Position numbers and translations under genes: made by a program. The notes below the pieces were generated by a model. The model was not told the origin of the DNA. It worked only from the letters and a program-made list of their open reading frames with translations, and searched no databases. From IMG/VR virus record IMGVR_UViG_3300027734_000092, positions 1-54,079 of that record: a DNA stretch of 54,079 nucleotides. One strand, written 5' to 3'. The DNA is from a virus. Taxonomy: Duplodnaviria; Caudoviricetes. Positions 1,968 through 13,907 of this stretch are shown one piece after another; within the stretch, counting starts at the first letter, position 1; every line of letters begins with the position of its first letter.

Positions 1968-2096
1968 TTACTTGGCTAGTTCAGTGGATTGAGTTTTAAC
2001 TTGGTCAACGCCTTTGTCCAGCATCTTAGCAATGCCGCTGAAGCCAACGGTAGCAAGAACTAGACCAAATACTGTACCAATGATAAATGCTTTCAT
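1968..2096 (-). CDS. Small membrane protein (42 aa, not in ORF track)
   Basis: MKAFIIGTVFGLVLATVGFSGIAKMLDKGVDQVKTQSTELAK, preceded by promoter and GGAG. Confidence 0.7.
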   Translation of the reverse strand: MKAFIIGTVFGLVLATVGFSGIAKMLDKGVDQVKTQSTELAK

Positions 2097-2123
2097 GTCG
2101 CTCTCCTAAGTGTTTAAGTGTGT

Positions 2124-2152
2124 AGTATACAATCAAATGTCGCGGCTGTCAA
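2124..2152 (-). promoter_or_regulatory. sigma70-type early promoter
   Basis: TTGACA-17-TATACT followed by ACACACTTAAACACTTAGGAG leader. Confidence 0.85.
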
Positions 2153-2321
2153 GTACCCGTGTTGCTAGCAAGCCACAGTAGCTGGTCAGCAGGCCCACAA
2201 TAGCAACGAACATGCTACCCAACAGTTCTGTGTCAGTTTGGCTAACTTCGATGCCGCCCACACCAGCAAAGGTGATCAGGAAACCCACGAAGATCAAAAA
2301 TGTTGCGCCTTCTTTATTCAT
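2133..2321 (-). CDS. Small two-TM membrane protein
   Basis: Start reassigned to MNKEG after GGAG; two hydrophobic segments. Confidence 0.7.
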   Translation of the reverse strand: MNKEGATFLIFVGFLITFAGVGGIEVSQTDTELLGSMFVAIVGLLTSYCGLLATRVLDSRDI

Positions 2322-2347
2322 ATCAGCTCCTAAGTGTTTAAGTGTGT

Positions 2348-2376
2348 AGTATAGCACCAATTTACCAGTCTGTCAA
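2348..2376 (-). promoter_or_regulatory. sigma70-type early promoter
   Basis: TTGACA-17-TATACT plus shared leader. Confidence 0.85.
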
Positions 2377-2397
2377 CCCCGGGCGGAATAACCCTAC

Positions 2398-2652
2398 TCA
2401 ATCCCAGGACTTTTTGCCCCCAAATCGCTCGTTGTAGTCGTAGCCCGCTAGGTAAGCATCGATCTGTTCTGCAGTCATTTCACGCACCCCAACTTCGGTG
2501 TCAGAATAGCTTTCACCCCGGTAGTAGTGAGGATCTCTAGGACGGCTGTACCAACTGTCGGCACTACCGCGATCAAACGGTCCACCATGTCGGCTATCGT
2601 ACTTGACGCCGTTGAACTCGATAACGCAGAACTTGTCTTCTTGTAACATCAT
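2398..2652 (-). CDS. Hypothetical phage protein
   Basis: RHGGPFDRGSADSWY motif; coupled to upstream ORF. Confidence 0.7.
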   Translation of the reverse strand: MMLQEDKFCVIEFNGVKYDSRHGGPFDRGSADSWYSRPRDPHYYRGESYSDTEVGVREMTAEQIDAYLAGYDYNERFGGKKSWD

Positions 2653-2984
2653 ACAGTCTCCATGTCTAAGGTTAAACGGGTTGCTGGGTAGGCAATGCGC
2701 CCTTCGTAGTCCAACTGACTCTGCTCAAAGTCAGTGAGGTAGTCGTCTGCTACCACTTCCCAACCGATGATGTATTCGCGGAAGCCTTCGTTGTCTACAT
2801 CAATCTGGCCACGGAAGAACTCTACCAACTCAGCTAGGGCCTCTGCATTACGAGCAACAGAACCCAAGTCATACTTATAATCGTTGCCGCCTTTGAACTT
2901 CCAGTACTGTGGGCAAGCACCTGTGCCGTCCCAATCGTGGGCACCGTAGTTTTCCTGGATTTGTGTAGTGATTAGTAATTGCAT
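2649..2984 (-). CDS. Hypothetical phage protein
   Basis: Start reassigned to MQLLITTQ after GGAG; ENYGAHDWDG...PQYWKFKGG motif. Confidence 0.75.
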   Translation of the reverse strand: MQLLITTQIQENYGAHDWDGTGACPQYWKFKGGNDYKYDLGSVARNAEALAELVEFFRGQIDVDNEGFREYIIGWEVVADDYLTDFEQSQLDYEGRIAYPATRLTLDMETV

Positions 2985-3015
2985 ATGGGCTCCTGTTTTG
3001 CTAGTGTATGTGTAT

Positions 3016-3044
3016 ATTATACGGCCGGTTTTACCTTTTGTCAA
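3016..3044 (-). promoter_or_regulatory. sigma70-type early promoter
   Basis: TTGACA-17-TATAAT. Confidence 0.85.
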
Positions 3045-3241
3045 CCCCTAATTGCAGTAAAGATCGACTGTTGTAAATCTGCCACTTCGTCACGCTCGAC
3101 GTAGAAGTCTGTACGTGGATCCCAGTACTCGCCTGCTTTGGCATCATAGTACAGCACACGGCCGTTGGGATAGTGGAAAGGGCCTTCAAGTCCTAGACGT
3201 GGACCGTATTCCTGATTGTGTTTGAAAACCGTGTAAGCCAT
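3041..3241 (-). CDS. Hypothetical phage protein
   Basis: LEGPF...VLYYD..AGEYWDP motif; promoter and RBS upstream. Confidence 0.75.
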   Translation of the reverse strand: MAYTVFKHNQEYGPRLGLEGPFHYPNGRVLYYDAKAGEYWDPRTDFYVERDEVADLQQSIFTAIRG

Positions 3242-3266
3242 ATGCCGCTCTCCTTAGTGTCTGTGT

Positions 3267-3295
3267 AGTATAGCATCGGTTTTGCCTTTTGTCAA
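3267..3295 (-). promoter_or_regulatory. sigma70-type early promoter
   Basis: TTGACA-17-TATACT. Confidence 0.85.
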
Positions 3296-3414
3296 CCGGG
3301 GAGTGCCGGGGTGTTGTGAAAATACAACAAGGTGAACCCCACCGTATTTCACAATAGGGCGGGGTTCGGGGGTTGCCTAGGGACACTACCCCCTAGGACT
3401 TTGGAGCGACTGGA

Positions 3415-3693
3415 TTAGCCGTTGAGCGACATGCCCATTGACTTAGCAAGGTAACCAAGTGCAACGATTTCACGTGATGGGCGACCCAACTCGTATTCTG
3501 TTACGGTAGCATTGTTACCAGCAACACGGCTGTTGGCATAGACTGCGTAGCCTGCTTGGCGGATGCGGCTTGCTTCTGCCGACAAGTTCTTAACGCCGAA
3601 ACGCTTAAGAGCTTGGCTTGATGTCAACTTCTCACCAGCTTGGAGAGCTGAGAAAATCTTACCTGTTTTGGTTTCTAGATTGATTCTTTTCAT
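3415..3693 (-). CDS. Putative winged-helix DNA-binding protein
   Basis: Start MKRINL; LTSSQALKRFGVKNLSAEASRIRQAGY is HTH-like. Confidence 0.55.
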   Translation of the reverse strand: MKRINLETKTGKIFSALQAGEKLTSSQALKRFGVKNLSAEASRIRQAGYAVYANSRVAGNNATVTEYELGRPSREIVALGYLAKSMGMSLNG

Positions 3694-3737
3694 TTTTATG
3701 TTTCCTCTGTGTTTTGCTGTTCTCACAGCGTGTTACT

Positions 3738-3766
3738 ATTATACTGCCTAACCGAGCCCTTGTCTA
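3738..3766 (-). promoter_or_regulatory. sigma70-type promoter
   Basis: TAGACA-17-TATAAT. Confidence 0.65.
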
Positions 3767-4185
3767 GCCTTTTGGAGAGATTCGTTACGGGCCATTTCCC
3801 AAGCACGGTCTAGGTTGTTAGTGGTATAACCAAACCTATCGGTCAGCATATCAGCGATATTGCTGAACAAGGGCATCTGCAGACCCATTTCAACAGATCC
3901 TTCCCACCAACTGTAATCAATAGGAGGTTGTGGGCTCTGCTTGGTTACCTGCCGTAGACCTATCTCTTGGAGCCTAACACTCTGCTTCCACTTGCGTAGT
4001 AGTGTCTGCTCAATCATCGTCCAGTAGTTCTGTGCCCAAGGCCTCTTGGCCGACTTGACCATCTTACGGGCACGATCAAGTCGCTGACCTAACAGTTCGA
4101 TCTCATCGCTAGAATAAGCCCAATCCTTAAAGTGAATTAAGGATTCGAGCTCTGACTTAGCCTTTCTTGATCGACACATTAGCAC
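3748..4185 (-). CDS. Hypothetical protein
   Basis: 145-aa ORF in the co-oriented block; start uncertain. Confidence 0.6.
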   Translation of the reverse strand: MLMCRSRKAKSELESLIHFKDWAYSSDEIELLGQRLDRARKMVKSAKRPWAQNYWTMIEQTLLRKWKQSVRLQEIGLRQVTKQSPQPPIDYSWWEGSVEMGLQMPLFSNIADMLTDRFGYTTNNLDRAWEMARNESLQKARQGLG

Positions 4186-4351
4186 GGAAGAACGCTCCTA
4201 AGATAATTACAGCCAACCAGGTGTAGAAATCATAAGGTATAGCCGCGGCCGGGAATAGTGTGTTGAAGGCCCAAATAGTTAGCAGTGGCCCGATCGCAAG
4301 GACCAGAACAACCAACGCAATAAGACCTAGAACGGTTATAAAACTCTTCAT
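4157..4351 (-). CDS. Small membrane protein
   Basis: Hydrophobic 64 aa; GGAG RBS. Confidence 0.7.
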   Translation of the reverse strand: MKSFITVLGLIALVVLVLAIGPLLTIWAFNTLFPAAAIPYDFYTWLAVIILGAFFRANVSIKKG

Positions 4352-4367
4352 AGATTAACTCCGAAAT

Positions 4368-4389
4368 CGGGGCACTTTGAAATGCCCCG
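4368..4389. terminator. Intergenic hairpin, possible terminator
   Basis: CGGGGCA-8-TGCCCCG just after a stop codon; weak U-tract. Confidence 0.4.
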
Positions 4390-4394
4390 TTATA

Positions 4395-4790
4395 TTACAT
4401 CAACGCTTCGCCGACTTCTTTAGTCAAAGCCTCGATAGCACTTGCTTGCGACTGCACAGGCGCTTTGGTAGTCTTCACTACCGGAGTCTTCGTTGCTTTG
4501 GCAGGAGCCTTAGCAACAGGCTTAGAGACCTTAGCCTTTGGTGCAGTAATACCGCGCTTATCAGCCGCGGCCTCCAATGCGGCACGGACAGCCTTGTTAC
4601 CGTTGTCGAAATCAATCTTCAACAGGAACGCAACAGCATCTTCTTTAGTCATTGGGTTCTTCAACTCAATGATATCGATGTCCTTGTGACCATTCTTAGC
4701 AAGTACTTTGACTCGCATCATATCATTGGCGAAACGAACTTTGAATTCGCCGTTGAGCTTAGAAACGCCTGCATGTGAATAAACTGACAT
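4395..4790 (-). CDS. Hypothetical protein with Lys/Ala/Pro-rich histone-like tail
   Basis: KAKVSKPVAKAPAKATKTP tail; GAGG RBS. Confidence 0.75.
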   Translation of the reverse strand: MSVYSHAGVSKLNGEFKVRFANDMMRVKVLAKNGHKDIDIIELKNPMTKEDAVAFLLKIDFDNGNKAVRAALEAAADKRGITAPKAKVSKPVAKAPAKATKTPVVKTTKAPVQSQASAIEALTKEVGEALM

Positions 4791-4838
4791 AATTTACCTC
4801 TTTCTGTGTGTATGTTAGAACAATCTCTAACTGTTAAT

Positions 4839-4867
4839 AGTATAGCACCAAAGTGCCCAATTGTCAA
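4839..4867 (-). promoter_or_regulatory. sigma70-type early promoter
   Basis: TTGACA-17-TATACT. Confidence 0.85.
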
Positions 4868-4870
4868 CCC

Positions 4871-5062
4871 CTAACTGTTCATTGTTTGGTAAGGGCCAAA
4901 CTCTTCCTGTGGCGTTTCTACAACACCATTGATCTCCATCCAAGCATAGACGTACTCAACTGGTATGTCCAATGTCTTGGCAATGTTCTTCTCCGTCAAG
5001 CCCTCGATATAGAGTTGCTCGATGTCGTATGCATACATATCCAACTCGGCCATTTTACTCAT
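4871..5062 (-). CDS. Small HTH-like protein
   Basis: GLTEKNIAKTLDIPVEYV resembles an HTH. Confidence 0.55.
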   Translation of the reverse strand: MSKMAELDMYAYDIEQLYIEGLTEKNIAKTLDIPVEYVYAWMEINGVVETPQEEFGPYQTMNS

Positions 5063-5112
5063 TTGGTTTTTCCTTTAGAAGTTGTTGAACCATCCACTCA
5101 ATTACTTTGCTA

Positions 5113-5379
5113 TCATTCATCAAAGGCCTCCTCGCCCATTTCAGTTACTGTTTCTGTTACCACACCCAAATCGATGATGCGGGCTGTTTGATCTTCATTG
5201 CTTACACCTTGGAAGGCAGTACGGAACGACTGGTACTCTCCCAAGAAGTCAAACACATCAAGCCTATCCCACGACTCAGGGACTTCAAGTTCCTGCATCA
5301 GCTCTGTACGCACAATGACTTTCTTTGTGCCTTCTAGTTTAGCACGGGCCGAAGCCCGCTTGCTTTCAAAGCCTGTCAT
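5113..5379 (-). CDS. Hypothetical protein
   Basis: 88 aa; TAATG coupling to upstream gene. Confidence 0.65.
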   Translation of the reverse strand: MTGFESKRASARAKLEGTKKVIVRTELMQELEVPESWDRLDVFDFLGEYQSFRTAFQGVSNEDQTARIIDLGVVTETVTEMGEEAFDE

Positions 5380-5870
5380 TATGCAAACTCCTCTTCTTTA
5401 GCCTTAGCCTTTAGCGCAGTTGCCAAACGCTTCCAAGCGCCAGCACTACCCTTCTTGTAGAACCACTTGCCTGCTTGCTGATCTGCATCATAGCGGAACA
5501 AGTAGTAGTACTCAGCACCGCAATGCTCGTAATGTGTCACTGCCTCTTTGGCTGTGTCAAATCGTTTGTACTGTGTACCCTTCTCCTCGCGATCGCGTCC
5601 GTAAAAGGTAGTCATGTCGCCGTAGAGCTTATCGTAAGCATCGCCGTCCATTGGAACTTCCAACTTGCTAAAGGCGTGCTTCTCACCAATCTCTGGACGG
5701 AGCGAGCTGATGTCGCCCAGGGCAATGAGGTTGTTGACTTTGGGGCTTGCGGCATAGTGCTCGTTGAGGATAGCGCCGTTGTGCTCAATATAACCGTCCC
5801 AGTGGCAGTAGACTGCCTTGACTGCTTTGGTATTTGGATTTTCAATACCAATCATGCTTCGTGTTCCCAT
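5379..5870 (-). CDS. Hypothetical phage early protein
   Basis: MGTRS...VYCHWDGY motif; promoter and RBS. Confidence 0.75.
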   Translation of the reverse strand: MGTRSMIGIENPNTKAVKAVYCHWDGYIEHNGAILNEHYAASPKVNNLIALGDISSLRPEIGEKHAFSKLEVPMDGDAYDKLYGDMTTFYGRDREEKGTQYKRFDTAKEAVTHYEHCGAEYYYLFRYDADQQAGKWFYKKGSAGAWKRLATALKAKAKEEEFA

Positions 5871-5897
5871 TTCAGCTCCTTAAGTGTTTAAGTGTAT

Positions 5898-5926
5898 AGT
5901 ATAACACCAATTTACCAGTTTGTCAA
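5898..5926 (-). promoter_or_regulatory. sigma70-type early promoter
   Basis: TTGACA-17-TATACT plus shared leader. Confidence 0.85.
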
Positions 5927-6135
5927 CCATCGATCCAACAATCCCTGGCTAACTGTGTGGTTATTGTGTCCCCACCGATGTAGTCCCCAGAGAAGCCGTT
6001 GTTATTTTGCAACACCAAGCTCACGCCAATGTAGCTCTTTTTGATCTCTACAATTTTGCCTGACTGCTCTATGTCTGACTTGAAGCCCACGTAGTCTCCT
6101 ACGCTGACCTCTTGTCCCTCAACAAGTGCTTTCAT
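5923..6135 (-). CDS. Hypothetical protein, SH3-like
   Basis: Start MKALVE; VGDYVGFKSDIEQSGKI. Confidence 0.7.
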   Translation of the reverse strand: MKALVEGQEVSVGDYVGFKSDIEQSGKIVEIKKSYIGVSLVLQNNNGFSGDYIGGDTITTQLARDCWIDG

Positions 6136-6473
6136 TGTGCGTCCTCGCTTTCGCACTCTCCGTCAAACTCCATAAGATTTTCGATAGCGTCTGCAACACG
6201 ATCCGACTCTGTTGTGTAGAAAGTAAACTCGCCTAGCGTAGTGCGACCTTCGCCTTCTTTAATGTATTCGAAGCCACCGTAGTAGTCCAAACGCGAACCT
6301 GTGTACGACACAATCGTATCTTCGTCAACATACAACATACCGCAACGCTCGTCAAGGCCTAAACGGCTTGCGGGCTCTTTGCGCATACCCTGCACATGAC
6401 GGCTTACCACTTCGTTAATTGCATCCAGCAAGTCTGCGGAACTGTCAAATTCTGTGTCTGTAAAAAATCCCAT
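6132..6473 (-). CDS. Hypothetical acidic protein
   Basis: 113 aa; promoter and RBS. Confidence 0.7.
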   Translation of the reverse strand: MGFFTDTEFDSSADLLDAINEVVSRHVQGMRKEPASRLGLDERCGMLYVDEDTIVSYTGSRLDYYGGFEYIKEGEGRTTLGEFTFYTTESDRVADAIENLMEFDGECESEDAQ

Positions 6474-6500
6474 TTCGCTCTCCTAAGTGTTTAAGTGTGT

Positions 6501-6529
6501 AGTATAGCACCAATTTACCAATCTGTCAA
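6501..6529 (-). promoter_or_regulatory. sigma70-type early promoter
   Basis: TTGACA-17-TATACT plus shared leader. Confidence 0.85.
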
Positions 6530-6532
6530 CCC

Positions 6533-6730
6533 CTATTGTGCAAATATTTCCTTGCTAAGAATCTCGTCTTCTACAATTTGGTGGCAAGAGTTAAGGGTAA
6601 ATTGCATGATGAGATATGCAGTAGCTTTGGCCTCTGTAGGCATCATCTCAATGTATGCCTGTATTTCTGCAAGAGACTTCGTTGCAAAGAGTCCGCTACG
6701 GGGAATTGGGTTGTTTACGATATTGTACAT
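6533..6730 (-). CDS. Hypothetical protein
   Basis: 65 aa; promoter and RBS. Confidence 0.7.
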   Translation of the reverse strand: MYNIVNNPIPRSGLFATKSLAEIQAYIEMMPTEAKATAYLIMQFTLNSCHQIVEDEILSKEIFAQ

Positions 6731-6757
6731 GTGTCGCTCTCCTTAGTGTATGTGTAT

Positions 6758-6786
6758 ATTATAGCACAGGTTTTACCATTTGTCAA
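6758..6786 (-). promoter_or_regulatory. sigma70-type early promoter
   Basis: TTGACA-17-TATAAT. Confidence 0.85.
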
Positions 6787-6787
6787 C

Positions 6788-6816
6788 CAAAGACCCTACA
6801 CACAGTAGGGTCTTTG
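6788..6816. repeat. Perfect 12-bp inverted repeat (best copy of the ACCCT-N9-AGGGT palindrome)
   Basis: CAAAGACCCTAC-ACACA-GTAGGGTCTTTG. Confidence 0.8.
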
Positions 6817-6824
6817 TTGTTTAA

Positions 6825-7208
6825 TTACAACTCCATGCTCGCATAGCCGTCGTCTTGCATACCTTGTTCTGTAAAGCTAACGTCTGTCCCCAGCAAAGCA
6901 CTAATCGCATCGCTAAAACCGCTGTCCGTATACATACGCCAGCTCCCCTCTACTTCACTACCGTCTACACCGTCTACGTTATAGCAAACTGCAATGTGTA
7001 TGCTAGTGTCGCCACTGCCATCGCCGTAGTCTGTCTCGCTAATGTGTATGCTTGTAACTGTAACTGTCTCTAGCTCGCAGTCCCATATGCTGTCGCCTGC
7101 AAGTTGCACTTCTACGTTGCACTTGTACTCTGTGTTAGTAGTGTCGTCCTCTACTTCTGTGCTTACAAAAGTTAGTTTGTCGCTTACGTTAAATGTCGTT
7201 GCTTGCAT
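6825..7208 (-). CDS. Very acidic, proline-free hypothetical protein
   Basis: Start MQATTF after GGAG; about 26 D/E vs 3 K/R in 127 aa. Confidence 0.75.
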   Translation of the reverse strand: MQATTFNVSDKLTFVSTEVEDDTTNTEYKCNVEVQLAGDSIWDCELETVTVTSIHISETDYGDGSGDTSIHIAVCYNVDGVDGSEVEGSWRMYTDSGFSDAISALLGTDVSFTEQGMQDDGYASMEL

Positions 7209-7234
7209 ATTCGCTCCTAAGTGTTTAAGTGTGT

Positions 7235-7263
7235 AGTATAGCACAGTTTTTACCATTTGTCAA
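7235..7263 (-). promoter_or_regulatory. sigma70-type early promoter
   Basis: TTGACA-17-TATACT plus shared leader. Confidence 0.85.
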
Positions 7264-7295
7264 GTGCTGTGCTAATAACCCTGCTGTGTGTAGTG

Positions 7296-7472
7296 TTAAT
7301 CTATGTAGTAGTCAACCATTTGCACTAGTTCCGCATGTGTGTTAAACATCTCGTCACCCCATCGTGTGCCCGCTATTTGCTCGCCTTCGCAAGTTGCTTC
7401 TAGCAATAGTGTCTCCACTTGTGCAAGTAATTTAAAAATCTCCGCCTTTGCGTCTACATACTGTATTGTCAT
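7296..7472 (-). CDS. Small acidic hypothetical protein
   Basis: Start MTIQYV, TAATG-coupled to the upstream ORF. Confidence 0.65.
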   Translation of the reverse strand: MTIQYVDAKAEIFKLLAQVETLLLEATCEGEQIAGTRWGDEMFNTHAELVQMVDYYID

Positions 7473-7633
7473 TATACTTCCCCATCTGTTAATTCCCAAC
7501 CGTTTAGTTCCGTTGCATATACATTGTCCGCATATATGTCAACTGTGTCTGCAATAGCGTCTGCTTCTGCTTGCGTTTCTGCGTCTATGTGCAAATAATG
7601 TGTTTGTGTTTGTTTGTATACAAATGTCTGCAT
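7472..7633 (-). CDS. Small acidic hypothetical protein (53 aa, not in ORF track)
   Basis: MQTFVYKQTQTHYLHIDAETQAEADAIADTVDIYADNVYATELNGWELTDGEV; AGGAG RBS. Confidence 0.7.
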   Translation of the reverse strand: MQTFVYKQTQTHYLHIDAETQAEADAIADTVDIYADNVYATELNGWELTDGEV

Positions 7634-7642
7634 GTTTACTCC

Positions 7643-7912
7643 TTATGCTAAATCTGCTTTTACACGTACATAAGTTCCGCCCCATGTGCGTGTTATGTAA
7701 TCTCTAGCAACACAAGTCTGTGTTACTTCGTTTGCACAAGTAGCACGTAAATAGTTTGCTAAAGTGTCCGCATCCTGTGCATTGCTAAAACAAAATACTA
7801 CTGTACGTCTTTTGCTTGTTTTGTCTTTTTTATTTGTCCTGTCCGTATAACTTGCGCTTACGTTACTTACATTACGTGCTAATGCACGTATTTGCTTTGT
7901 GTTAAACAACAT
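7643..7912 (-). CDS. Basic hypothetical protein
   Basis: 89 aa, no Pro; promoter and RBS. Confidence 0.7.
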   Translation of the reverse strand: MLFNTKQIRALARNVSNVSASYTDRTNKKDKTSKRRTVVFCFSNAQDADTLANYLRATCANEVTQTCVARDYITRTWGGTYVRVKADLA

Positions 7913-7938
7913 ACTGCTCCTTTAGTGTTTAAGTGTGT

Positions 7939-7967
7939 AGTATAGCACACATTGTCCAAAATGTCAA
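7939..7967 (-). promoter_or_regulatory. sigma70-type early promoter
   Basis: TTGACA-17-TATACT plus shared leader. Confidence 0.85.
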
Positions 7968-7986
7968 GTGTGCTGTAAAATAACCC

Positions 7987-8265
7987 TTACGCTGGCAGGG
8001 TTTCTAATTCCAATACCTCTGCACTTGTTAGCACTTTGTAGCCCTGCTTCTCTAAGTAGGCAATGTATGTTGCATTTTTTTGTGCTTTTGCTTTTGCAAT
8101 AGCGGCGGGCATGGCTTTGTCTATTGCGTTATGTAATGCAGTTAAACCTTTGCCGTATTTTATATACGCATGTTGTGCGGGACCGGAAATGCGGGTACCC
8201 CCACCAAATACAAGTGCATTTGCTTTGTCTTCTGCTACTTGCTTAATAAAACTGTTCCAACTCAT
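7987..8265 (-). CDS. Hypothetical protein
   Basis: 92 aa; AGGAG RBS. Confidence 0.7.
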   Translation of the reverse strand: MSWNSFIKQVAEDKANALVFGGGTRISGPAQHAYIKYGKGLTALHNAIDKAMPAAIAKAKAQKNATYIAYLEKQGYKVLTSAEVLELETLPA

Positions 8266-8266
8266 C

Positions 8267-8669
8267 TGTGCTCCTGTTAAAAATGTATTATAACATAAAA
8301 CAAAAGCCCGCGCTTGTGGCGGGCTATTGTACTAACTGCAACAGAACATGTTGCTGTTAATTAACTTATTATTTTCAATGTAACGGAGTACGCTAATGTA
8401 ATACTCGCGTACTAGGGTGTCCTGATACATAATACTATTGTGTAACGCTTGTGCGTCTTTGTTTTTATTAAATGCAACTAAAGCATTAATATTATATGCA
8501 ACGTCGTCTGCGTACATACTTAAACTGCTACTGTCGTCTCCATCAGTAACAAAAGTATTAATATAGTCCTCTGTAGTTTTAAGCATTAAACGCTGTAGTT
8601 TTAAAAAATGGACTGCTGTAACTTTGCGCATAGTGTGTGCTCCTGTTAAAAATGTATTATAACATAAAA
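8267..8669. repeat. 34-bp exact direct repeat covering -10, leader and RBS, at 8267-8300 and 8636-8669
   Basis: TGTGCTCCTGTTAAAAATGTATTATAACATAAAA in both places. Confidence 0.85.
8332..8631 (-). CDS. Hypothetical protein
   Basis: 99 aa, no Pro; RBS and promoter. Confidence 0.7.
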   Translation of the reverse strand: MRKVTAVHFLKLQRLMLKTTEDYINTFVTDGDDSSSLSMYADDVAYNINALVAFNKNKDAQALHNSIMYQDTLVREYYISVLRYIENNKLINSNMFCCS

Positions 8670-8684
8670 TGGACTATTGTGCAA
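8656..8684 (-). promoter_or_regulatory. sigma70-type promoter
   Basis: TTGCAC-17-TATAAT with extended -10 TG. Confidence 0.65.
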
Positions 8685-8708
8685 GTGTATACACAATAGC
8701 CCTCCAAT

Positions 8709-8939
8709 TTAGTAGGGTACTACTGTGTTTGTGCGTAGTTGTGCTTTAGCGCGGAGAATAGCGTTGTTAATACTATATTGTACATATTCCGCAGAATCTG
8801 TAGTATTTGCTATGTCCCCTGTTATTAGTGCTGTATTTTTTACAGTAATACGATTGTATGCATCGAACGTAAAAACTACGCGATATGTTTTATTTTTGGT
8901 AGTTACTACTTTGTAGTACAGTTTGCAATTTGTTTGCAT
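8709..8939 (-). CDS. Hypothetical protein
   Basis: Start reassigned to MQTNCK after GGAG. Confidence 0.7.
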   Translation of the reverse strand: MQTNCKLYYKVVTTKNKTYRVVFTFDAYNRITVKNTALITGDIANTTDSAEYVQYSINNAILRAKAQLRTNTVVPY

Positions 8940-8966
8940 GTCTGCTCCTTTAGTGTTTAAGTGTGT

Positions 8967-8995
8967 AGTATAACACAAAAGGAAAAACCTGTCAA
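8967..8995 (-). promoter_or_regulatory. sigma70-type early promoter
   Basis: TTGACA-17-TATACT plus shared leader. Confidence 0.85.
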
Positions 8996-9007
8996 CCAAA
9001 GACCCTA

Positions 9008-9535
9008 TTAGGTGTAGGGCTTCTTGTAAAAGATGTGCTGGCCAATCTGTTGTATTTTCACAACACTCTTGGTCCATAGGGGCTTAACATAGTCCGCATG
9101 GTAGTAGGTGCTTTGGAACAATGAGGGAACACGGACTCCTTTATCTAGCACGGTTCTTGCTACCGTTAGACTCTCTGCCCATAGCTCGCCCTTAGGCTGT
9201 TCCCGGACCTTTCGCTTGTTCAGCGTCCATGAGAACTGAGCTTTCGCATAGACCACATCGCAGATTGAGTGACCCCAACGGCCGGTCTTGAGTCTGTTGA
9301 GGGTGACCTGGGCGACAGCGAACTTGCCTTCAATGGGTTCCACCCCTGCTTCGTGATAGATGTTCTTGGCCAGACATTGGGCGTCTGCTGTAGTATACTT
9401 GAGGCGCTCAGGGGTTCGAACCAGGAACTGTTTGATCTCTTGAACGTCATCATGTACCACCTGTATTTCCATTTGAATGAAACCTAGAACAGCCACTAGG
9501 GCTGTTCCGGTCACAATGGTCTGAACCTTATTCAT
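9008..9535 (-). CDS. SleB-like cell wall hydrolase (Hydrolase_2)
   Basis: CLAKNIYHEAG.E...AVAQVTLNR...QFSW...YYHADYVKP.W...IGQHIFY; N-terminal TM. Confidence 0.9.
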   Translation of the reverse strand: MNKVQTIVTGTALVAVLGFIQMEIQVVHDDVQEIKQFLVRTPERLKYTTADAQCLAKNIYHEAGVEPIEGKFAVAQVTLNRLKTGRWGHSICDVVYAKAQFSWTLNKRKVREQPKGELWAESLTVARTVLDKGVRVPSLFQSTYYHADYVKPLWTKSVVKIQQIGQHIFYKKPYT

Positions 9536-9650
9536 CCTCTTCCTCTTCCTCGCTAGGAGGATAGAACGCTACACTTACCCCGTCAAAGCCCTGTAGGCTA
9601 TCAACTTCATACTTCACTGGGCAGGATTGAAGCCATGTCCAAAAGTCCAT
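9528..9650 (-). CDS. Small hypothetical protein (40 aa, not in ORF track)
   Basis: MDFWTWLQSCPVKYEVDSLQGFDGVSVAFYPPSEEEEDE; GGAG upstream; fills the gap. Confidence 0.55.
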   Translation of the reverse strand: MDFWTWLQSCPVKYEVDSLQGFDGVSVAFYPPSEEEEEDE

Positions 9651-9651
9651 G

Positions 9652-10290
9652 TTACTCCTCCACTTTCAGTTCAATACCCTTCTTCTCTGCACCTTCTTTG
9701 GTCCAAGTGTAGAGCTCTTCGTCTTCTTGATTGTCTTCTTCCCACATACGCAGGTTCTCTACGATGCACATGCACTCGTCAACTTCATCATTAATGGCTT
9801 TATCTACTTCATCTGCACTCATGTCAGTGTAGTCAAAGTAGTCATCACCATTCTCATCAAAGATGCCGCAGTAGCACATGCCTGATTCCCAATAGATCAA
9901 CTTGACCTTAAAGCCCAAGTCCTGGAACTTCTCCATGGCCGCAATGGGTGGTGCCCAGGCTGAATCAAAGTTCAATTGGAGGTCGGTAGGGCTGTCCTGG
10001 CTAGCCTGACCATCTCCGCCTACATCCCACTTGGTTCCCCACTCGTTGACGCAGTAGTCATACCAGTTGGCATAGCCATGCACCTCTATGTTCCGGGCTG
10101 TATCCTCTTCCAGTTTCTTCTGTGCAGGGTCATTCTCGTCACCTACGCAACCTGCTACGATATGTAGGCTTGCTGGCACTGGGCAGAACTCTTCTAAGAG
10201 TTTACCATTAGTAAAGGCTGTCTTGGCCCGCTCAATCATAGCAGGGTCTTCGTGTTCTAGTTCGAGATAGTTGTTGCACCAATTAGGCAT
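9652..10290 (-). CDS. DUF1281/YubB ferredoxin-like domain protein
   Basis: MPNWCNN...WYDYCVNEWGTKWD...FDSAWAPP signature. Confidence 0.8.
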   Translation of the reverse strand: MPNWCNNYLELEHEDPAMIERAKTAFTNGKLLEEFCPVPASLHIVAGCVGDENDPAQKKLEEDTARNIEVHGYANWYDYCVNEWGTKWDVGGDGQASQDSPTDLQLNFDSAWAPPIAAMEKFQDLGFKVKLIYWESGMCYCGIFDENGDDYFDYTDMSADEVDKAINDEVDECMCIVENLRMWEEDNQEDEELYTWTKEGAEKKGIELKVEE

Positions 10291-10444
10291 TGTGAGGCTC
10301 CTCAATTTTTAGGTTGGACAAAAGTGCTTCTAGGACATCGTAAGCCATCTGCCAACGATCCCCGGGAATGTTATAGACTTGATTCGTTGCATCCTCAAGG
10401 GTAGCCAGGGCCTCCTTGATTCTGTATTGCTCAACAGTAAGCAT
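10283..10444 (-). CDS. Hypothetical protein
   Basis: Start MLTVEQ, TGATG coupling. Confidence 0.6.
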   Translation of the reverse strand: MLTVEQYRIKEALATLEDATNQVYNIPGDRWQMAYDVLEALLSNLKIEEPHNA

Positions 10445-10710
10445 CACACCCCCATCTCGTAGAACGAAACAGTAGGATCTACAGTCAGCAGTTCCTCTGC
10501 ACAACGAGTAAGAAAGCGGGCCTTCTCGCGAACCTGTGCACCACGCAACTCGCCATCGCAGGTCAAGTTCTCTGGGCTCATCTCGCTGTCAATGCTGTTG
10601 GCAATAGCCTGGCGATCTTGTTTATTCAGCAGGCTCAGTGGCTTCTGATTAAAAATGGCACGCCAGCGGTTCTTTTGCTCTACATAGGTTTCCAGTGCTT
10701 GAATGTTCAT
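10444..10710 (-). CDS. Hypothetical phage protein
   Basis: SPENLTCDGE motif; promoter and RBS. Confidence 0.75.
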   Translation of the reverse strand: MNIQALETYVEQKNRWRAIFNQKPLSLLNKQDRQAIANSIDSEMSPENLTCDGELRGAQVREKARFLTRCAEELLTVDPTVSFYEMGV

Positions 10711-10728
10711 CTATCGCTCCTTAAGTGT

Positions 10729-10971
10729 TTAAGTGTATAGTATAGCAGGTTTTACCAGTTCTGTCAACTTCTTTATAGGATCCTGTGGCCCTTTTGCAAC
10801 AACCTTAAAGTCTCTATGCTTAGGGTCAAAGCCTATAGGTTTGCTGAACATCTTGTGCTCGTTGGTGCGGGCTTTGATGTAACCATACATCACCCGCTTG
10901 TCGTCGCTGAGCAAGTAGATGTTATTGGGGATGTCATCTCCCCAATCTGTAGTTTCTAAGTAGAACTTCAT
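10729..10971 (-). CDS. Hypothetical phage protein
   Basis: ETTDW..PN..YLL motif; its C-terminus reads through the next promoter. Confidence 0.7.
   Translation of the reverse strand: MKFYLETTDWGDDIPNNIYLLSDDKRVMYGYIKARTNEHKMFSKPIGFDPKHRDFKVVAKGPQDPIKKLTELVKPAILYT
10739..10767 (-). promoter_or_regulatory. sigma70-type early promoter
   Basis: TTGACA-17-TATACT plus shared leader. Confidence 0.85.
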
Positions 10972-11234
10972 TACATTGACCAGTAAGATTCGCTGGATGG
11001 GCTACAGTAGTTGGGCGTGTCATAGCGTTCCATGAACTTGCCACCACCCATCATGTTGGTCCGCTCAACCATTGTAACATGAATCTCGTAGCGGTAGCCC
11101 TTGCTGGCCGGATACTGTGAATCATAGACTTCAGTCAGCACTGACTGGCTGTGAGTGCTGTGGTCTGTCTTCCGTACTAGACGCTCGCCTGAGTTCTTGC
11201 GCTTGTCTGCTTTATAAAGTTCTACTGTATACAT
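10971..11234 (-). CDS. Hypothetical phage protein
   Basis: C-terminal TP.YCSPSSESYWSM motif. Confidence 0.75.
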   Translation of the reverse strand: MYTVELYKADKRKNSGERLVRKTDHSTHSQSVLTEVYDSQYPASKGYRYEIHVTMVERTNMMGGGKFMERYDTPNYCSPSSESYWSM

Positions 11235-11262
11235 ATATCGTTCTCCTTAGTGTCTAGTGTAT

Positions 11263-11291
11263 AGTATAGCACAGGTTTTACCATTTGTCAA
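11263..11291 (-). promoter_or_regulatory. sigma70-type early promoter
   Basis: TTGACA-17-TATACT. Confidence 0.85.
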
Positions 11292-11361
11292 TCAAAAAAA
11301 GGAGGGTGTTGCGTATAAACAACAACACCCCCTAAAGGCCCGCACTACCGGGCCGGAGCAA

Positions 11362-11688
11362 TCAATCTAACCTGCTACCTGCGTAGGCCTCCAAGCCCAA
11401 CGAACGGAGGTACTCTGCCATAGCCTCTGCACCCGCTTCCAGGGTGTCCACATTCTGTACGAACATACCGCTTGGATTCCAAAGTTGGAGTCCGCCTGTG
11501 TAGCTCTTGCTGAAACCTTCTTTAACCAGCTCCTTGCCCTGCTTTGAGTTACTACGGACACCATGCACCGTTACCCAAGCAAAGCCACAAGCGAACTGAT
11601 CGCGCCCGCCCAGCTTCTCTTGAAAGAACTTGGCACTTGCCTTGTTAGCCAGTACCTTACCAACTTGAACTTGATCTGCTGTAATCAT
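11362..11688 (-). CDS. Hypothetical phage protein
   Basis: CGFAWV...EAGAEAMA...SRLD motif. Confidence 0.75.
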   Translation of the reverse strand: MITADQVQVGKVLANKASAKFFQEKLGGRDQFACGFAWVTVHGVRSNSKQGKELVKEGFSKSYTGGLQLWNPSGMFVQNVDTLEAGAEAMAEYLRSLGLEAYAGSRLD

Positions 11689-11716
11689 CTATCGCTCCTT
11701 AAGTGTTTAAGTGTAT

Positions 11717-11745
11717 AGTATAACATCAAAGGTTTTACCTGTCAA
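11717..11745 (-). promoter_or_regulatory. sigma70-type early promoter
   Basis: TTGACA-17-TATACT plus shared leader. Confidence 0.85.
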
Positions 11746-11966
11746 CCCCATACCTTGAATAACCCTACGGCGCATACGGCTATAGCTACAACGTTAACAA
11801 TCATCTGTGGCTTATTTGCCACACGTACAGTCCAAGCTAGATAGCACATCCCGCCCAGCAACCCAAAGAGCGGATCCAATTGGAACTCCCTGAAGAAGTT
11901 CATGAGCACGTACATTGCCAAGATGCATACAGTACCGGCCCACTGAAGTACTTCATTGATTCGCAT
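11742..11966 (-). CDS. Small three-TM membrane protein
   Basis: Hydrophobic 74 aa. Confidence 0.7.
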   Translation of the reverse strand: MRINEVLQWAGTVCILAMYVLMNFFREFQLDPLFGLLGGMCYLAWTVRVANKPQMIVNVVAIAVCAVGLFKVWG

Positions 11967-12177
11967 AAGACCTCAGAGCTTTCTGGTACTCCCGCCAATT
12001 GCCATAGCTCCTAGCATTACCTTGCCAAGCTACTACCACGGTGCCGCTGGGTTTAACACCCCAAAAGCGTCCTCGCCATGCTGGCCCATCTGTTCCTGTG
12101 TAGACCCACTGTCCGGGAGTCAGCTTTCGCATTTCATCTAGACCCATCGGGCCTATGTCAATAACCTTCTTGTACAT
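11953..12177 (-). CDS. Hypothetical protein
   Basis: 74 aa, coupled to upstream gene. Confidence 0.65.
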   Translation of the reverse strand: MYKKVIDIGPMGLDEMRKLTPGQWVYTGTDGPAWRGRFWGVKPSGTVVVAWQGNARSYGNWREYQKALRSYANQ

Positions 12178-12893
12178 TATGCCGCCTCCTTCAAACGGAT
12201 TACGAATCCGCTGTAGTCCTTCTTAGCCTTGCCCTTAGCCTTAAGGCCAGCAATCACACCTTTGGGATCTAAGAAGCGCAAGTCTGTTTCGTCAGCATTA
12301 ATAACAGTCTTGCCCTTGTAAGTCTCAGGCACTTCGTCAAAGACAGCGGCTACATTCATACCTTGTGCCATTGCTTTGGTTACGTCTGCTTCGTTGCCAT
12401 CTGCTTGGCTAAAGATTAAGAAGTAATTGTCATAGCCTGCCTTACGACCCAACACCTTAGTGTAGTCATAGAACTGAATGTCTGGGAAGCATTCAAATAC
12501 ATTCAAGCCCGGAAGCATGTCGTACTTCTCCCAGCTCAAGTCACTAGTACCGTTCAACCGGAACACTGGCTTCAAGCCCAGCTTAGCCGCTAGTTTAATG
12601 CCCTTCTCAATGTCGTGCTTCAAGTCTAACATGAAGTCCATACGAGCATCGTAGAAGTACTTGGTCTTGCGAATGCGAGCTTTCTGGATAGTATTGGTAC
12701 TCTCGCCGCGTTTGAACATGCCGCCGCGCCCTGCTGTATTAAGGCAAGCCGCTTTGCATCCTGCTGTAGCCTTAGGGCAAGTATTATGTCCGCTCAAGTC
12801 TGCTGGAGCAAGGTGTAAGATGAATGAAAGATAGCCCAGCTTCGTGCCCTTTTGGATCTTCGGGTTCGCTGTAGAAAGTAGTTTGAATGTCAT
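12177..12893 (-). CDS. GP88-family protein (Cys-rich, possibly Fe-S binding)
   Basis: CPKATAGCKAAC, RLNGTSD, FYDYTK, DLRFLD motifs. Confidence 0.75.
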   Translation of the reverse strand: MTFKLLSTANPKIQKGTKLGYLSFILHLAPADLSGHNTCPKATAGCKAACLNTAGRGGMFKRGESTNTIQKARIRKTKYFYDARMDFMLDLKHDIEKGIKLAAKLGLKPVFRLNGTSDLSWEKYDMLPGLNVFECFPDIQFYDYTKVLGRKAGYDNYFLIFSQADGNEADVTKAMAQGMNVAAVFDEVPETYKGKTVINADETDLRFLDPKGVIAGLKAKGKAKKDYSGFVIRLKEAA

Positions 12894-12920
12894 AGTCTGC
12901 TCCTTTAGTGTCTAGTGTAT

Positions 12921-12949
12921 AGTATAGCACGGTTTTACCACTTTGTCAA
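12921..12949 (-). promoter_or_regulatory. sigma70-type early promoter
   Basis: TTGACA-17-TATACT. Confidence 0.85.
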
Positions 12950-12968
12950 CCCCTAATGGAAAGACCCT

Positions 12969-13187
12969 TTAGCAGTCAGGGTCAAAGCTCATCCACTCGT
13001 CGTACTCGCTGGGCTGTCCGTCGTACTCCGGCTCGTCTGCTTCGCGGATCACCACTTCGCCATCGCTGTCCAACTCTACGAACGGATGACTGTATCCATC
13101 GTAGGTCTCGTCGCTTCCACGCAAGATAACGTGGGCGTCTTCAGGCATCTTGCTCAACGCCTCTATCAAGTCTTTTACGGTTGTCAT
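12969..13187 (-). CDS. Hypothetical protein
   Basis: Start MTTVKDLI after GGAG; C-terminal YDGQPSEYDEW.SFDPDC. Confidence 0.7.
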   Translation of the reverse strand: MTTVKDLIEALSKMPEDAHVILRGSDETYDGYSHPFVELDSDGEVVIREADEPEYDGQPSEYDEWMSFDPDC

Positions 13188-13227
13188 AATCTGCTCCTTT
13201 GTTTCTGTTTGCTTCTTTATTGTCTCT

Positions 13228-13256
13228 AGTATAACACCGGTTTTACCATCTGTCAA
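13228..13256 (-). promoter_or_regulatory. sigma70-type early promoter
   Basis: TTGACA-17-TATACT. Confidence 0.85.
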
Positions 13257-13275
13257 CCCCTAGTTTAAAGACCCT

Positions 13276-13464
13276 TCAATCTATCTGGATATCAACTAGT
13301 CTGCCGTCCCTAAAGATGTAGTACTCGTTGAGTTGACCGTAGTAGGCCCAGATGCAGTCGTTGCCCTGAGTGAGTGTATAGTTCTCAACACCCTTGTTCT
13401 GTAGATGCTCTGCTACAATCATCACTTCTAGTTCGTTTAGAGTCTTGTCTATCGTAATCATCAA
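13276..13464 (-). CDS. Hypothetical protein
   Basis: 62 aa; GAGG RBS. Confidence 0.65.
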   Translation of the reverse strand: MMITIDKTLNELEVMIVAEHLQNKGVENYTLTQGNDCIWAYYGQLNEYYIFRDGRLVDIQID

Positions 13465-13799: not shown

Positions 13800-13805
13800 G
13801 TGTGT

Positions 13806-13834
13806 AGTATAACACGGTTTTACCACCTTGTCAA
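13806..13834 (-). promoter_or_regulatory. sigma70-type early promoter (probably leaderless transcript)
   Basis: TTGACA-17-TATACT, then 6 nt, then ATG. Confidence 0.8.
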
Positions 13835-13907
13835 CCACTTTGATCTTACCCGAGTAGACTGTAGGGTCTTTGGTGTTGTTTTAGCGCCACACCGCCGGCA
13901 CTCCTAG

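What the first reader, a model, noticed from the sequence alone, without database searches (positions are those of the whole stretch)
6810..7994. Strand-specific island with no GA or GG dinucleotide on the template strand, across four genes and two promoters
Seen: reading base by base, the + strand has no GA and no GG from 6810 to 7994, no GA from 6793 to 8180, and both stay scarce to about 8940. G is common here but is always followed by C or T. TC and CC are abundant on the same strand, so the effect is strand-specific. The mRNA strand therefore lacks TC and CC: the four proteins have no Pro and use only AGY for Ser, and codon junctions and intergenic DNA obey the rule too. Shared regulatory motifs are changed to comply. 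The spacer GCACAGGTTTTACC (6764, 11269) is GCACAGTTTTTACC at 7241, and the palindrome half-site AGGGT is AGTGT at 7292. Established, from memory: some phages place 7-deazaguanine (dPreQ0) in context-specific sites, GA and GGC in phage CAjan. Inference: virion DNA may carry a bulky modification at G-purine sites that impedes host RNA polymerase on the template strand, so the first-needed genes sit in an unmodifiable-template cassette. Alternatives are escape from a host YC-specific ssDNA/RNA-damaging enzyme, or removal of all palindromic restriction sites containing GA/TC/GG/CC.
Basis: partly seen in the sequence, partly recalled or inferred. Interest (0 to 1): 0.93.

Follow-up and report, generated by a model that had tools for sequence, protein, structure and literature searches.

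The report
Phage early genes banning pyrimidine-C
Four tiny first-expressed genes of an uncultured giant lake phage are written so that C never follows T or C on the message strand, a rule that selection keeps in dozens of related phages; something in the infected cell must read that two-letter step, perhaps the terminator Rho.

Summary
On the + strand, none of 216 G between 6810 and 7994 is followed by A or G (chance about 1e-52). The genes lie on the - strand, so their mRNA has no UC or CC (YC). The stretch covers two sigma-70-type promoters and four ORFan genes, and it ends in a stem-loop. It is the only such stretch in the window. There is also only one island locus in each of three large relatives.

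The rule holds at codon junctions and in untranslated regions. It is kept in 51 of 57 related loci, down to about 40% protein identity, and it flips with gene direction.

No DpdA/TGT gene was found in five relatives, two of them at least 98% complete.

My best reading (about 0.4) is that these transcripts are invisible to the host terminator Rho, whose RNA-binding clefts read 5'-YC. The likely host lineage (Burkholderiales) carries Rho.

Several results fit Rho poorly. The ban runs to the 3' end and into promoters, it shows no polarity, and T4 lacks it. An unidentified YC-reading enzyme therefore stays open.

This scan has already noted the same phenomenon on other DNA (17 notes, at least 16 genomes). 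I found no paper that describes it.

The parts
6810..7994 (-). Core island. There is no GA or GG on the + strand, which means no TC or CC (YC) on the - (mRNA) strand.
6793..8181 (-). Wider stretch with no GA on the + strand, which means no TC on the mRNA strand.
7939..7967 (-). Promoter P1: TTGACA, 17 nt, TATACT, with TG before the -10. Its spacer has no YC.
7643..7912 (-). Gene A, 89 aa, an ORFan. It has 0 YC (18.3 expected) and no Pro. The model shows a generic alpha/beta fold.
7475..7633 (-). Gene B, 53 aa, an acidic ORFan. It has 0 YC (10.9 expected).
7296..7472 (-). Gene C, 58 aa, an ORFan. Its ATG overlaps the stop codon of gene B by one base. It has 0 YC (11.6 expected).
7268..7295 (-). 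Degenerate stem-loop between genes C and D. The 5' arm on the mRNA reads ACACT instead of ACCCT, so the hairpin is lost and no CC is present.
7235..7263 (-). Promoter P2: TTGACA, 17 nt, TATACT, with TG before the -10. Its spacer reads AAAAAC where two sister promoters (spacer motif at 6764 and 11269) read AAAACC.
6825..7208 (-). Gene D, 127 aa, acidic. It is the core family of the island, with a conserved C-terminal motif FTEQGMQD..ASME. It has 0 YC (28 expected).
6788..6816 (-). 12-bp stem-loop where the island ends. The first CC and TC lie in its arms. The next promoter (6786-6758) follows directly.
7987..8631 (-). Two upstream genes that are partly purged. Gene 7987-8265 has a YC observed/expected ratio of 0.62 (TC 2, CC 13). 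Gene 8332-8631 has a ratio of 0.34 and no Pro.

Best explanation
The island is an immediate-early cassette. It consists of two strong host-type (sigma-70) promoters and four small ORFan genes. Purifying selection keeps the whole transcribed sequence free of the dinucleotides UC and CC.

Shown: the ban is real. It acts at the nucleotide level, not the codon level. It follows the coding strand, it is unique in the genome, and it is maintained by compensating substitutions across a wide clade of uncultured giant phages.

Inferred: The best-known reader with exactly this specificity is the transcription terminator Rho. Each of its six primary binding clefts holds a 5'-YC dinucleotide of nascent RNA. 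An RNA without YC offers no loading site, so these messages would be completed even when ribosomes lag behind the polymerase.

That step is speculative, and their function is unknown.
For: Reality and selection:
- 0 YC against 73 expected in the four genes.
- NYC codons are 0 of 70 C-ending codons in the island, against 366 of 951 outside. NRC codons are used freely.
- The base before a C-starting codon is a purine in 37 of 37 cases, against 306 of 573 outside.
- 51 of 57 related loci carry an island of 350-2250 nt.
- 30 of 37 distinct gene D sequences have 0 YC.
- Of 1288 pairwise differences to 17 relatives, 122 would create YC in the window's context, and 121 of those are neutralised by a neighbouring change.

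Follows the transcript:
- In L043 the ban switches strand with gene direction.
- Islands end in stem-loops or in the next promoter, and four first promoters carry YC in their spacers just upstream of the start.

One locus per genome: G001 (353 kb, 98% complete), G004 and G005.

Fit to Rho:
- The primary binding site reads 5'-YC (PMC12360218, passages).
- 'Up to six CC or UC dinucleotides', and composition-based Rho avoidance as a barrier for phages (PMC13323073, abstract, section 7 and passages).
- In T4, adding Rho restricts transcription in vitro to immediate-early RNA (PMC2988021, passages).

Host with Rho:
- The relative G001 carries a betaproteobacterial permuted tmRNA (102 bits against a threshold of 84).
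- It also carries a DnaK that is 65-76% identical to the 80 best bacterial matches, most of them Burkholderiales.
- 4 of 5 such genomes hold a Rho RNA-binding domain.
- No psbA was found in 10 island-bearing records.

A core host factor explains why the rule holds clade-wide better than a patchily distributed defence system would.

There is also a mild genome-wide YC deficit on coding strands: 0.89-0.91, against 0.98 for GA/GG (GR) on the same strands.
Against: 1. The ban runs to the last bases before the stem-loop. Rho loaded there could no longer matter, although module shuffling weakens this point because gene D is not always last.
2. Promoters at the island's upstream edge are YC-free in 22 of 26 cases, against 94 of 382 promoter-like sites elsewhere. 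An RNA-level reader does not predict this.
3. There is no 5'-to-3' polarity. The upstream flank is more depleted than the downstream flank in only 13 of 29 islands (p = 0.67).
4. T4, whose delayed-early RNA is Rho-limited, shows no purge in its first 50 kb. Across 77 genes the ratio runs from 0.70 upward with a median of 1.05, and the longest run is 111 nt.
5. Rho binds cooperatively through several YC, so a near-absolute ban (71 YC in 35,089 nt of islands) is stronger than expected.
6. C content is kept (17-19%), merely moved to AC and GC contexts.
7. Stretches in L043 that also lack GA and GG need a second explanation.
8. Residual YC are not preferentially base-paired.
9. The host is inferred, not known.
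Confidence: 0.4

Rival explanations
1. An unidentified single-hit reader of YC on the finished message. This could be an endoribonuclease or an RNA-modifying enzyme, and either a core host enzyme or one carried in by the virion for host shut-off. It would act at UC and CC. Only YC-free messages would survive until a cassette product or decay switches it off.
For: - The near-absolute ban fits a reader for which one site is enough. It runs to the 3' end and through untranslated regions.
- Damage at the RNA level is reversible. That would explain why only one cassette is purged and not the roughly 30 other early genes.
- A dinucleotide-specific RNA-directed defence has a precedent named in earlier notes: CmdT, which acts at GA in mRNA (I did not read the paper).
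- Contigs from RNA libraries cover island genes, so the genes occur in RNA libraries.
Against: - I know of no RNase or RNA modifier with YC specificity.
- Defence systems are patchy among hosts, yet the rule holds across a clade down to 40% identity.
- The comparison of G001, G004 and G005 against the island-less G002 gave 10 differential ORFs, none like a nuclease or transferase acting on RNA.
- It does not predict YC-free promoters.
Confidence: 0.25
2. Attack on single-stranded DNA. During heavy early transcription the non-template strand is exposed. A YC-preferring cytosine deaminase, or a dC-specific single-strand endonuclease of the T4 endonuclease IV (DenB) type, would damage it. A coding strand without YC cannot be hit.
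For: - It is strand-specific, bounded by the transcription unit and needs only a single hit.
- T4 DenB cuts single-stranded DNA 5' of dC, with dTdCdA preferred (PMC2095790 and PMC1635256, abstracts in the listing).
- TCA is the rarest context among residual YC: 4 of 71, against 18% in the background.
- A preference for pyrimidine before the target C is common among cytosine deaminases (recalled, no call).
Against: - No DenB homologue was found in the window or in 4 relatives. That search had no positive control.
- DNA damage is irreversible, so every strongly transcribed early gene should be purged, yet only one cassette is.
- The mRNA strand is A-rich, not T-rich, so the pattern is not the footprint of C-to-T decay.
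- It predicts a purge only from about -11, not through the -35 region.
Confidence: 0.15
3. Virion DNA carries a bulky mark on G in G-purine steps (or on the paired C) that stalls host RNA polymerase on the template strand. The cassette is a template that cannot be marked.
For: - The ban includes promoters (22 of 26) and runs to the end of the unit.
- L043 has stretches with neither YC nor GR on either strand, as a fully unmarked duplex would.
- The clade keeps arrays of radical-SAM paralogues of unknown role.
Against: - No TGT/DpdA gene in 5 of 5 relatives, with the control ringing in 14 of 14 genomes.
- The other early genes, driven by the same promoter type, have ordinary GA and GG on their templates, and they must be transcribed too.
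- The island's -35 hexamers (TTGACA) hold GA on the non-template strand.
- The radical-SAM arrays also occur in G002, which has no island.
Confidence: 0.1
4. Removal of restriction sites, or a codon- or tRNA-level effect such as avoiding proline or certain tRNAs.
For: - Many palindromic sites contain GA/TC or GG/CC.
- The proteins lack Pro, and Ser is never encoded by TCN.
Against: - The ban is one-stranded and flips with gene direction.
- It holds at codon junctions (37 of 37), in untranslated regions and in promoters.
- C-ending codons after a purine are used freely (70).
Confidence: 0.03

Closest known systems
Composition-based avoidance of Rho (purine bias of genes; Dierksheide et al., Nat Microbiol 2026, PMC13323073) and Rho's 5'-YC primary binding site (review PMC12360218)
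   Same: The coding strand is written so that nascent RNA offers Rho nothing to bind. The dinucleotides concerned are exactly UC and CC. The paper names phages as elements that face this barrier.
   Different: - The known case is a genome-wide statistical bias in bacteria with runaway transcription.
- Here there is a local, near-absolute ban: 0 of 73 expected in one 1.2-kb phage cassette.
- Protein sequences are rewritten and total C content is unchanged.
- Rho dependence is untested.
Immediate-early versus delayed-early transcription of phage T4 (PMC2988021)
   Same: Early genes are driven by strong sigma-70 promoters. Rho decides which early RNAs are completed before phage proteins are made.
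   Different: T4 shows no YC purge in its first 50 kb. In T4 the boundary is set by terminator positions and by translation, not by the composition of the message.
PeSL cassettes (promoter-early stem-loop) of T4-type phages (Arbiol et al. 2010, PMC2839356, abstract read)
   Same: The same unit of a strong sigma-70-like promoter plus a stem-loop recurs between small ORFans in a hyperplastic early region, and gene content is shuffled among relatives.
   Different: PeSLs were described as recombination modules. No dinucleotide ban was reported in the abstract I read. Inside the island the stem-loop is degraded because its 5' arm would need CC.
Motif-specific 7-deazaguanine DNA modification
   Same: A dinucleotide-scale G-purine context.
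   Different: The defining transglycosylase (DpdA/TGT) is absent from 5 of 5 relatives. No modification data exist for these phages.
T4 endonuclease IV (DenB), a dC-specific single-strand DNA endonuclease (PMC2095790, PMC1635256; abstracts)
   Same: A phage enzyme that reads pyrimidine-C (dT-dC-dA is preferred) on single strands only.
   Different: No homologue was detected here. CC is not its stated preference. In T4 the phage protects itself by replacing C, not by avoiding the motif.

Membership tests
Rho-evading (rut-free) transcript | Nascent RNA lacks the YC dinucleotides that Rho's primary binding site needs. | tested here: met
   0 YC in 1185 nt of mRNA strand, against 73 expected in the four genes.
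Rho-evading (rut-free) transcript | The host encodes Rho. | tested here: inconclusive
   - The host is unknown.
- A relative's tmRNA and DnaK point to Burkholderiales.
- 4 of 5 such genomes hold Rho_RNA_bind.
- The Polynucleobacter Rho ORF shows the motifs DGFGFLR, DIYISP and ERYFAL. I recall these as the E. coli YC-binding residues, but I did not align them.
Rho-evading (rut-free) transcript | Expression becomes Rho-dependent when YC is restored. | not testable with these tools
   This needs reporter assays with bicyclomycin or rho mutants, or in vitro termination assays.
Rho-evading (rut-free) transcript | Polar effect: sequence upstream in the same transcript should matter more than sequence downstream or at the extreme 3' end. 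| tested here: not met
   There is no upstream/downstream asymmetry of flank depletion (13 of 29, p = 0.67). The ban reaches the terminal stem-loop.
DpdA-type 7-deazaguanine DNA modification | A DpdA/TGT-family transglycosylase in the phage genome. | tested here: not met
   0 of 5 relatives, two of them 98-100% complete, while the control rang in 14 of 14 genomes. The window itself is only a 15% fragment.
DpdA-type 7-deazaguanine DNA modification | preQ0 pathway genes (FolE, QueD, QueE, QueC). | not tested
   The only signal is a weak QueE-like PHROG hit of one radical-SAM protein (E = 1.1e-4).
DpdA-type 7-deazaguanine DNA modification | Modified G present in virion DNA at the motif. | not testable with these tools
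   The runs found are held as contigs, not raw reads.
PeSL regulatory cassettes of T4-type phages | A strong sigma-70-like early promoter joined to a stem-loop, repeated between small nonessential ORFs. | tested here: met
   - 14 further copies of the promoter/stem-loop motif in the window.
- The sequence was read.
- The scan of 6400-8800 shows four - strand promoters with 11-12 of 12 matches, and three stem-loops, at 6788-6816, 8325-8305 and 8702-8671.
Evasion of CmdT-type GA-specific mRNA ADP-ribosylation | The mRNA lacks GA. | tested here: not met
   The mRNA strand of the four genes has GA+GG at 0.59-0.97 of expectation. GA is absent from the template strand, not from the message.
T4 endonuclease IV (DenB) self-protection | A DenB homologue in the phage. 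| tested here: inconclusive
   No match in the window or in 4 relatives, but the search had no positive control.

The most novel reading that the evidence does not exclude
It is a still-unknown enzyme, either a core host factor or a protein delivered by the virion for host shut-off. It cuts or marks single-stranded RNA or DNA at every pyrimidine-C step. The cassette is a self-immune first-wave operon, and its products then disarm the enzyme. This would be a new class of dinucleotide-specific nucleic-acid attack, and a new way for phages to write genes around it.
Probability: 0.3. Interest if true: 0.92.

Novelty: new variant of a known kind. Interest (0 to 1): 0.8.

Why it matters
A complete ban on a dinucleotide that rewrites four proteins is one of the strongest sequence-level selection signals seen in a phage. 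It is kept for as long as it takes proteins to drift to 40% identity.

It says that one factor in the infected cell reads UC/CC on these messages.

If that factor is Rho, phages can escape termination by spelling alone. The immediate-early class could then be recognised from sequence, and the cassette proteins become candidates for new Rho or host-takeover inhibitors.

If it is not Rho, an unknown dinucleotide-specific enzyme awaits discovery.

Either way the test is simple: put YC back by synonymous recoding.

Tried and rejected
Searches for relatives and function that gave nothing:
- Search for near-identical DNA and for gene D in cultured phages: no match. No cultured relative is at hand.
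- Pfam and PHROGs on the island proteins: nothing above threshold.
- Fold of gene D (pLDDT 88): no match in the PDB (best Foldseek E 0.25; best VIA Z 5.2, rmsd 4.0, 77 residues aligned). The only match is to unnamed viral models (TM 0.66).
- Fold of gene A (pLDDT 75): a generic alpha/beta fold, best E 0.014.
- ESM Atlas on gene D: no lead.
- Complex prediction of Polynucleobacter Rho with gene D: no answer, neither for nor against.

Searches of the relatives for candidate readers or host markers:
- Rho homologue in 5 relatives: none.
- DenB homologue: none, and the search had no positive control.
- psbA in 10 island-bearing records: none.
- ORFs shared by G001, G004 and G005 but absent from the island-less G002: 10 ORFs (MazG, cytidylyltransferase-like, phosphoribosyltransferase, cupin, six unknown). 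None looks like a reader. With one negative genome the power is low.
- The TauD-like gene is not conserved. The radical-SAM array is conserved also in G002, so neither tracks the island.

Tests on the islands themselves:
- Are residual YC hidden in RNA stems? No: mean pairing probability is 0.54, against 0.59 for control cytosines.
- Upstream polarity: none.
- Context of residual YC: CC 46, TC 25, and TCA rare. This is suggestive only.

Other checks:
- The GA-free runs in G002 at 130-141 kb are G-rich repeats that look like collagen-type (Gly-X-Y) coding repeats, not islands.
- RNA-library contigs cover both island and non-island early genes. Contigs cannot give starts, ends or levels.
- Parts of the stretch without cover, and small-share runs, are not used as evidence.

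Literature: five full-text searches found no description of a YC-free phage cassette. Supplements are closed, so I did not see any.
Full report
WHAT IS THERE.

The window is an IMG/VR virus record of 54,079 bases, estimated to be 15% of a genome. Relatives reach 265-400 kb, so this is a fragment of a giant phage.

On the + strand the longest run without GG is 6810-7994 (1185 nt; the next longest is 397). The longest run without GA is 6793-8181 (1389 nt; next 187).

The core stretch holds 216 G. 136 are followed by T, 79 by C and none by a purine. Window-wide, 42.6% of G are followed by a purine, so the chance of 216 misses is about 1e-52.

Of all 120 pairs of dinucleotides, GA+GG gives by far the longest free run (1185 against 161 for the next pair). 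TC and CC remain common on the same strand.

ANATOMY.

The genes lie on the - strand, so the message strand lacks TC and CC (YC). Read in the direction of transcription, the island holds:
- promoter P1 at 7967-7939 (TTGACA, 17 nt, TATACT, with TG);
- genes A (89 aa), B (53 aa) and C (58 aa);
- a degraded stem-loop;
- promoter P2 at 7263-7235;
- gene D (127 aa);
- a 12-bp stem-loop at 6816-6788, in whose arms the first CC and TC reappear.

Upstream, the island begins in the loop of a weak ACCCT...AGGGT hairpin.

The four genes have 0 YC against 73 expected from their composition. Among the 41 other - strand ORFs listed for 1-21 kb, the two genes just upstream are partly purged (0.62 and 0.34) and the other 39 have ratios of 0.53-1.12.

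The same unit of promoter plus stem-loop recurs through 2-14 kb. This is the PeSL architecture described for T4-type phages (PMC2839356, abstract).

THE RULE IS A NUCLEOTIDE RULE, NOT A CODON RULE.

In the island, C-ending codons with a pyrimidine in second place number 0 of 70. Outside the island they number 366 of 951.

C-ending codons after a purine (GAC, AAC, AGC, TAC, GGC) are used freely.

Every one of the 37 codons that start with C follows a codon ending in A or G, against 306 of 573 outside.

There is no Pro, Ser is encoded only by AGY, and Thr rises to 11.9%. Untranslated leaders and the internal promoter obey the rule too.

SELECTION AND SPREAD.

Gene D has relatives in 52 viral-contig loci, and gene A in 5. 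51 of these 57 loci (not de-duplicated) carry a YC-free or nearly YC-free island of 350-2250 nt on the coding strand around the homologue.

Of 37 distinct gene D sequences, 30 have 0 YC, four have 1-4, two have 8, and one (L060, with 6 prolines) has the ordinary number of 32. The family is therefore not intrinsically YC-free.

Between the window's island and 17 relatives there are 1288 pairwise differences. 122 of them would create a YC in the window's context, and 121 of those are neutralised by a change in the neighbouring base. The aligned spans of the relatives hold 2 YC in all. These counts are not phylogenetically independent.

In L043 a stretch free of GA and GG carries genes on the opposite strand, so the ban follows the coding strand.

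Gene content of the islands is mosaic. Gene D is the core, while A, B and C occur in 12, 7 and 14 loci, beside other small ORFans.

There is one island locus per genome:
- one run of 922 nt in G001 (353 kb, 98% complete; the next run for any dinucleotide pair is 263);
- one in G004;
- one cluster in G005;
- none in G002 (400 kb, 100% complete; longest run 224).

A DpdA/TGT transglycosylase defines all known 7-deazaguanine DNA systems. None was found in 5 of 5 large relatives, while the control rang in 14 of 14 genomes.

The island's own -35 hexamers contain GA on the other strand.

About 30 further early genes use the same promoter type and have ordinary templates.

A different DNA mark cannot be excluded. 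The clade keeps arrays of radical-SAM paralogues, but these also occur in the island-less G002.

WHICH READER?

Rho's primary binding clefts hold 5'-YC (PMC12360218, passages). [quoted passage not shown] In T4, adding Rho in vitro restricts transcription to immediate-early RNA (PMC2988021, passages).

A YC-free message is therefore the simplest way to be Rho-proof.

The host is probably a Rho-bearing betaproteobacterium:
- G001 carries a permuted tmRNA that fits the betaproteobacterial model (102 bits, threshold 84).
- G001 also carries a DnaK that is 65-76% identical to its 80 best bacterial matches, most of them Burkholderiales such as Polynucleobacter, Limnohabitans and Rubrivivax.
- 4 of 5 such genomes hold the Rho RNA-binding domain.
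- No psbA, a marker of cyanophages (whose hosts lack Rho), was found in 10 island-bearing records.

A core host factor also explains a clade-wide rule better than a patchy defence system does. Coding strands genome-wide show a mild YC deficit (0.89-0.91, against 0.98 for GA/GG) that T4 lacks (1.05).

WHAT SPEAKS AGAINST RHO.

1. The ban reaches the last bases before the stem-loop, where Rho could no longer act. Module shuffling softens this, because gene D is followed by further island genes in some relatives.

2. Promoters at the upstream edge of islands are YC-free in 22 of 26 cases, against 94 of 382 promoter-like sites elsewhere. The comparison set includes chance matches, and the island promoters share ancestry. 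In addition, 4 of the 26 do carry YC in the spacer, so this is a hint and not proof of a DNA-level rule.

3. Flank depletion shows no 5'-to-3' polarity (13 of 29, p = 0.67).

4. The first 50 kb of T4, rich in early genes, shows no purge.

5. A cooperative multi-site binder should tolerate sparse YC, yet islands hold 71 YC in 35,089 nt, about 2 per kb against roughly 90. Those YC are not preferentially base-paired.

6. C content is retained.

7. L043 has stretches that also lack GA and GG.

For these reasons I hold Rho at about 0.4. I keep three rivals:
- an unknown single-hit reader of YC on RNA (0.25);
- attack on the exposed non-template DNA strand by a YC-preferring deaminase or a DenB-type dC-specific endonuclease (0.15; no DenB homologue found);
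- a template-strand mark (0.1).

One general argument favours an RNA-level reader. Damage to RNA is reversible, which would explain why only the genes needed first are purged and not every early gene.

FUNCTION OF THE PRODUCTS.

Their function is unknown.
- There is no Pfam or PHROG family.
- Gene D folds confidently (pLDDT 88) into a beta-sheet with C-terminal helices. It has no match among solved structures.
- Gene A is a generic alpha/beta fold.

STANDING.

Contigs from lake metatranscriptome libraries cover gene A exactly, and cover relatives of gene D. This shows presence in RNA libraries only.

This scan has noted the same phenomenon on other DNA: 17 notes in at least 16 genomes held all the words of one of my look-ups, with readings that range from Rho to modified G.

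I reached the Rho idea before opening those notes. I took two paper leads from them and checked both myself.

Five full-text searches found no published description. Supplements were closed.

Noticed in passing
window 21931-43620: A dense cluster of four radical-SAM proteins (one with a SPASM domain), a TauD-like dioxygenase, four 2OG-Fe(II) oxygenases and an NAD-dependent epimerase. The radical-SAM paralogues form arrays of 3-11 copies in all five large relatives, including the island-less G002. Their role is unknown; it could be base, sugar or peptide modification.
   Followed up: partly
L043 7900-8100 and 8400-8700: Stretches that lack TC and CC and also GA and GG. They encode small proteins without D, E, G, P or W, and one of them has no Shine-Dalgarno sequence. 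This looks like a second dinucleotide ban laid over the first. It is not seen in the window.
   Followed up: partly
L067 4880-5227 (G001), L068-L069, L082: The near-complete relative encodes a permuted betaproteobacterial-type tmRNA, 32 tRNA genes, a full-length DnaK (633 aa) and a ClpB-like ATPase. These are unusual host-like chaperone and translation equipment for a phage.
   Followed up: partly
window 2088-13877: At least 14 further copies of one unit, a strong sigma-70 promoter joined to a stem-loop, lie between small ORFans on the - strand. This is PeSL-like architecture. The stem is usually GACCCTAC...GTAGGGTC.
   Followed up: partly
G002 130000-141000 (L172-L173): An 11-kb G-rich region with GA-free runs of 476-756 nt and about 75 GG per 500 nt. 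The repeats look like collagen-type (Gly-X-Y) coding repeats. It mimics an island in a naive scan but is a repeat artefact.
   Followed up: yes
window 13965-14042: A single tRNA-Met (CAT) gene on the - strand at the edge of the early region.
   Followed up: no
window 7643-8631: GA+GG on the message strand is also low (0.54-0.65 of expectation) in gene A and in the two genes upstream of the island. This is a weak echo of the double ban seen in L043.
   Followed up: no
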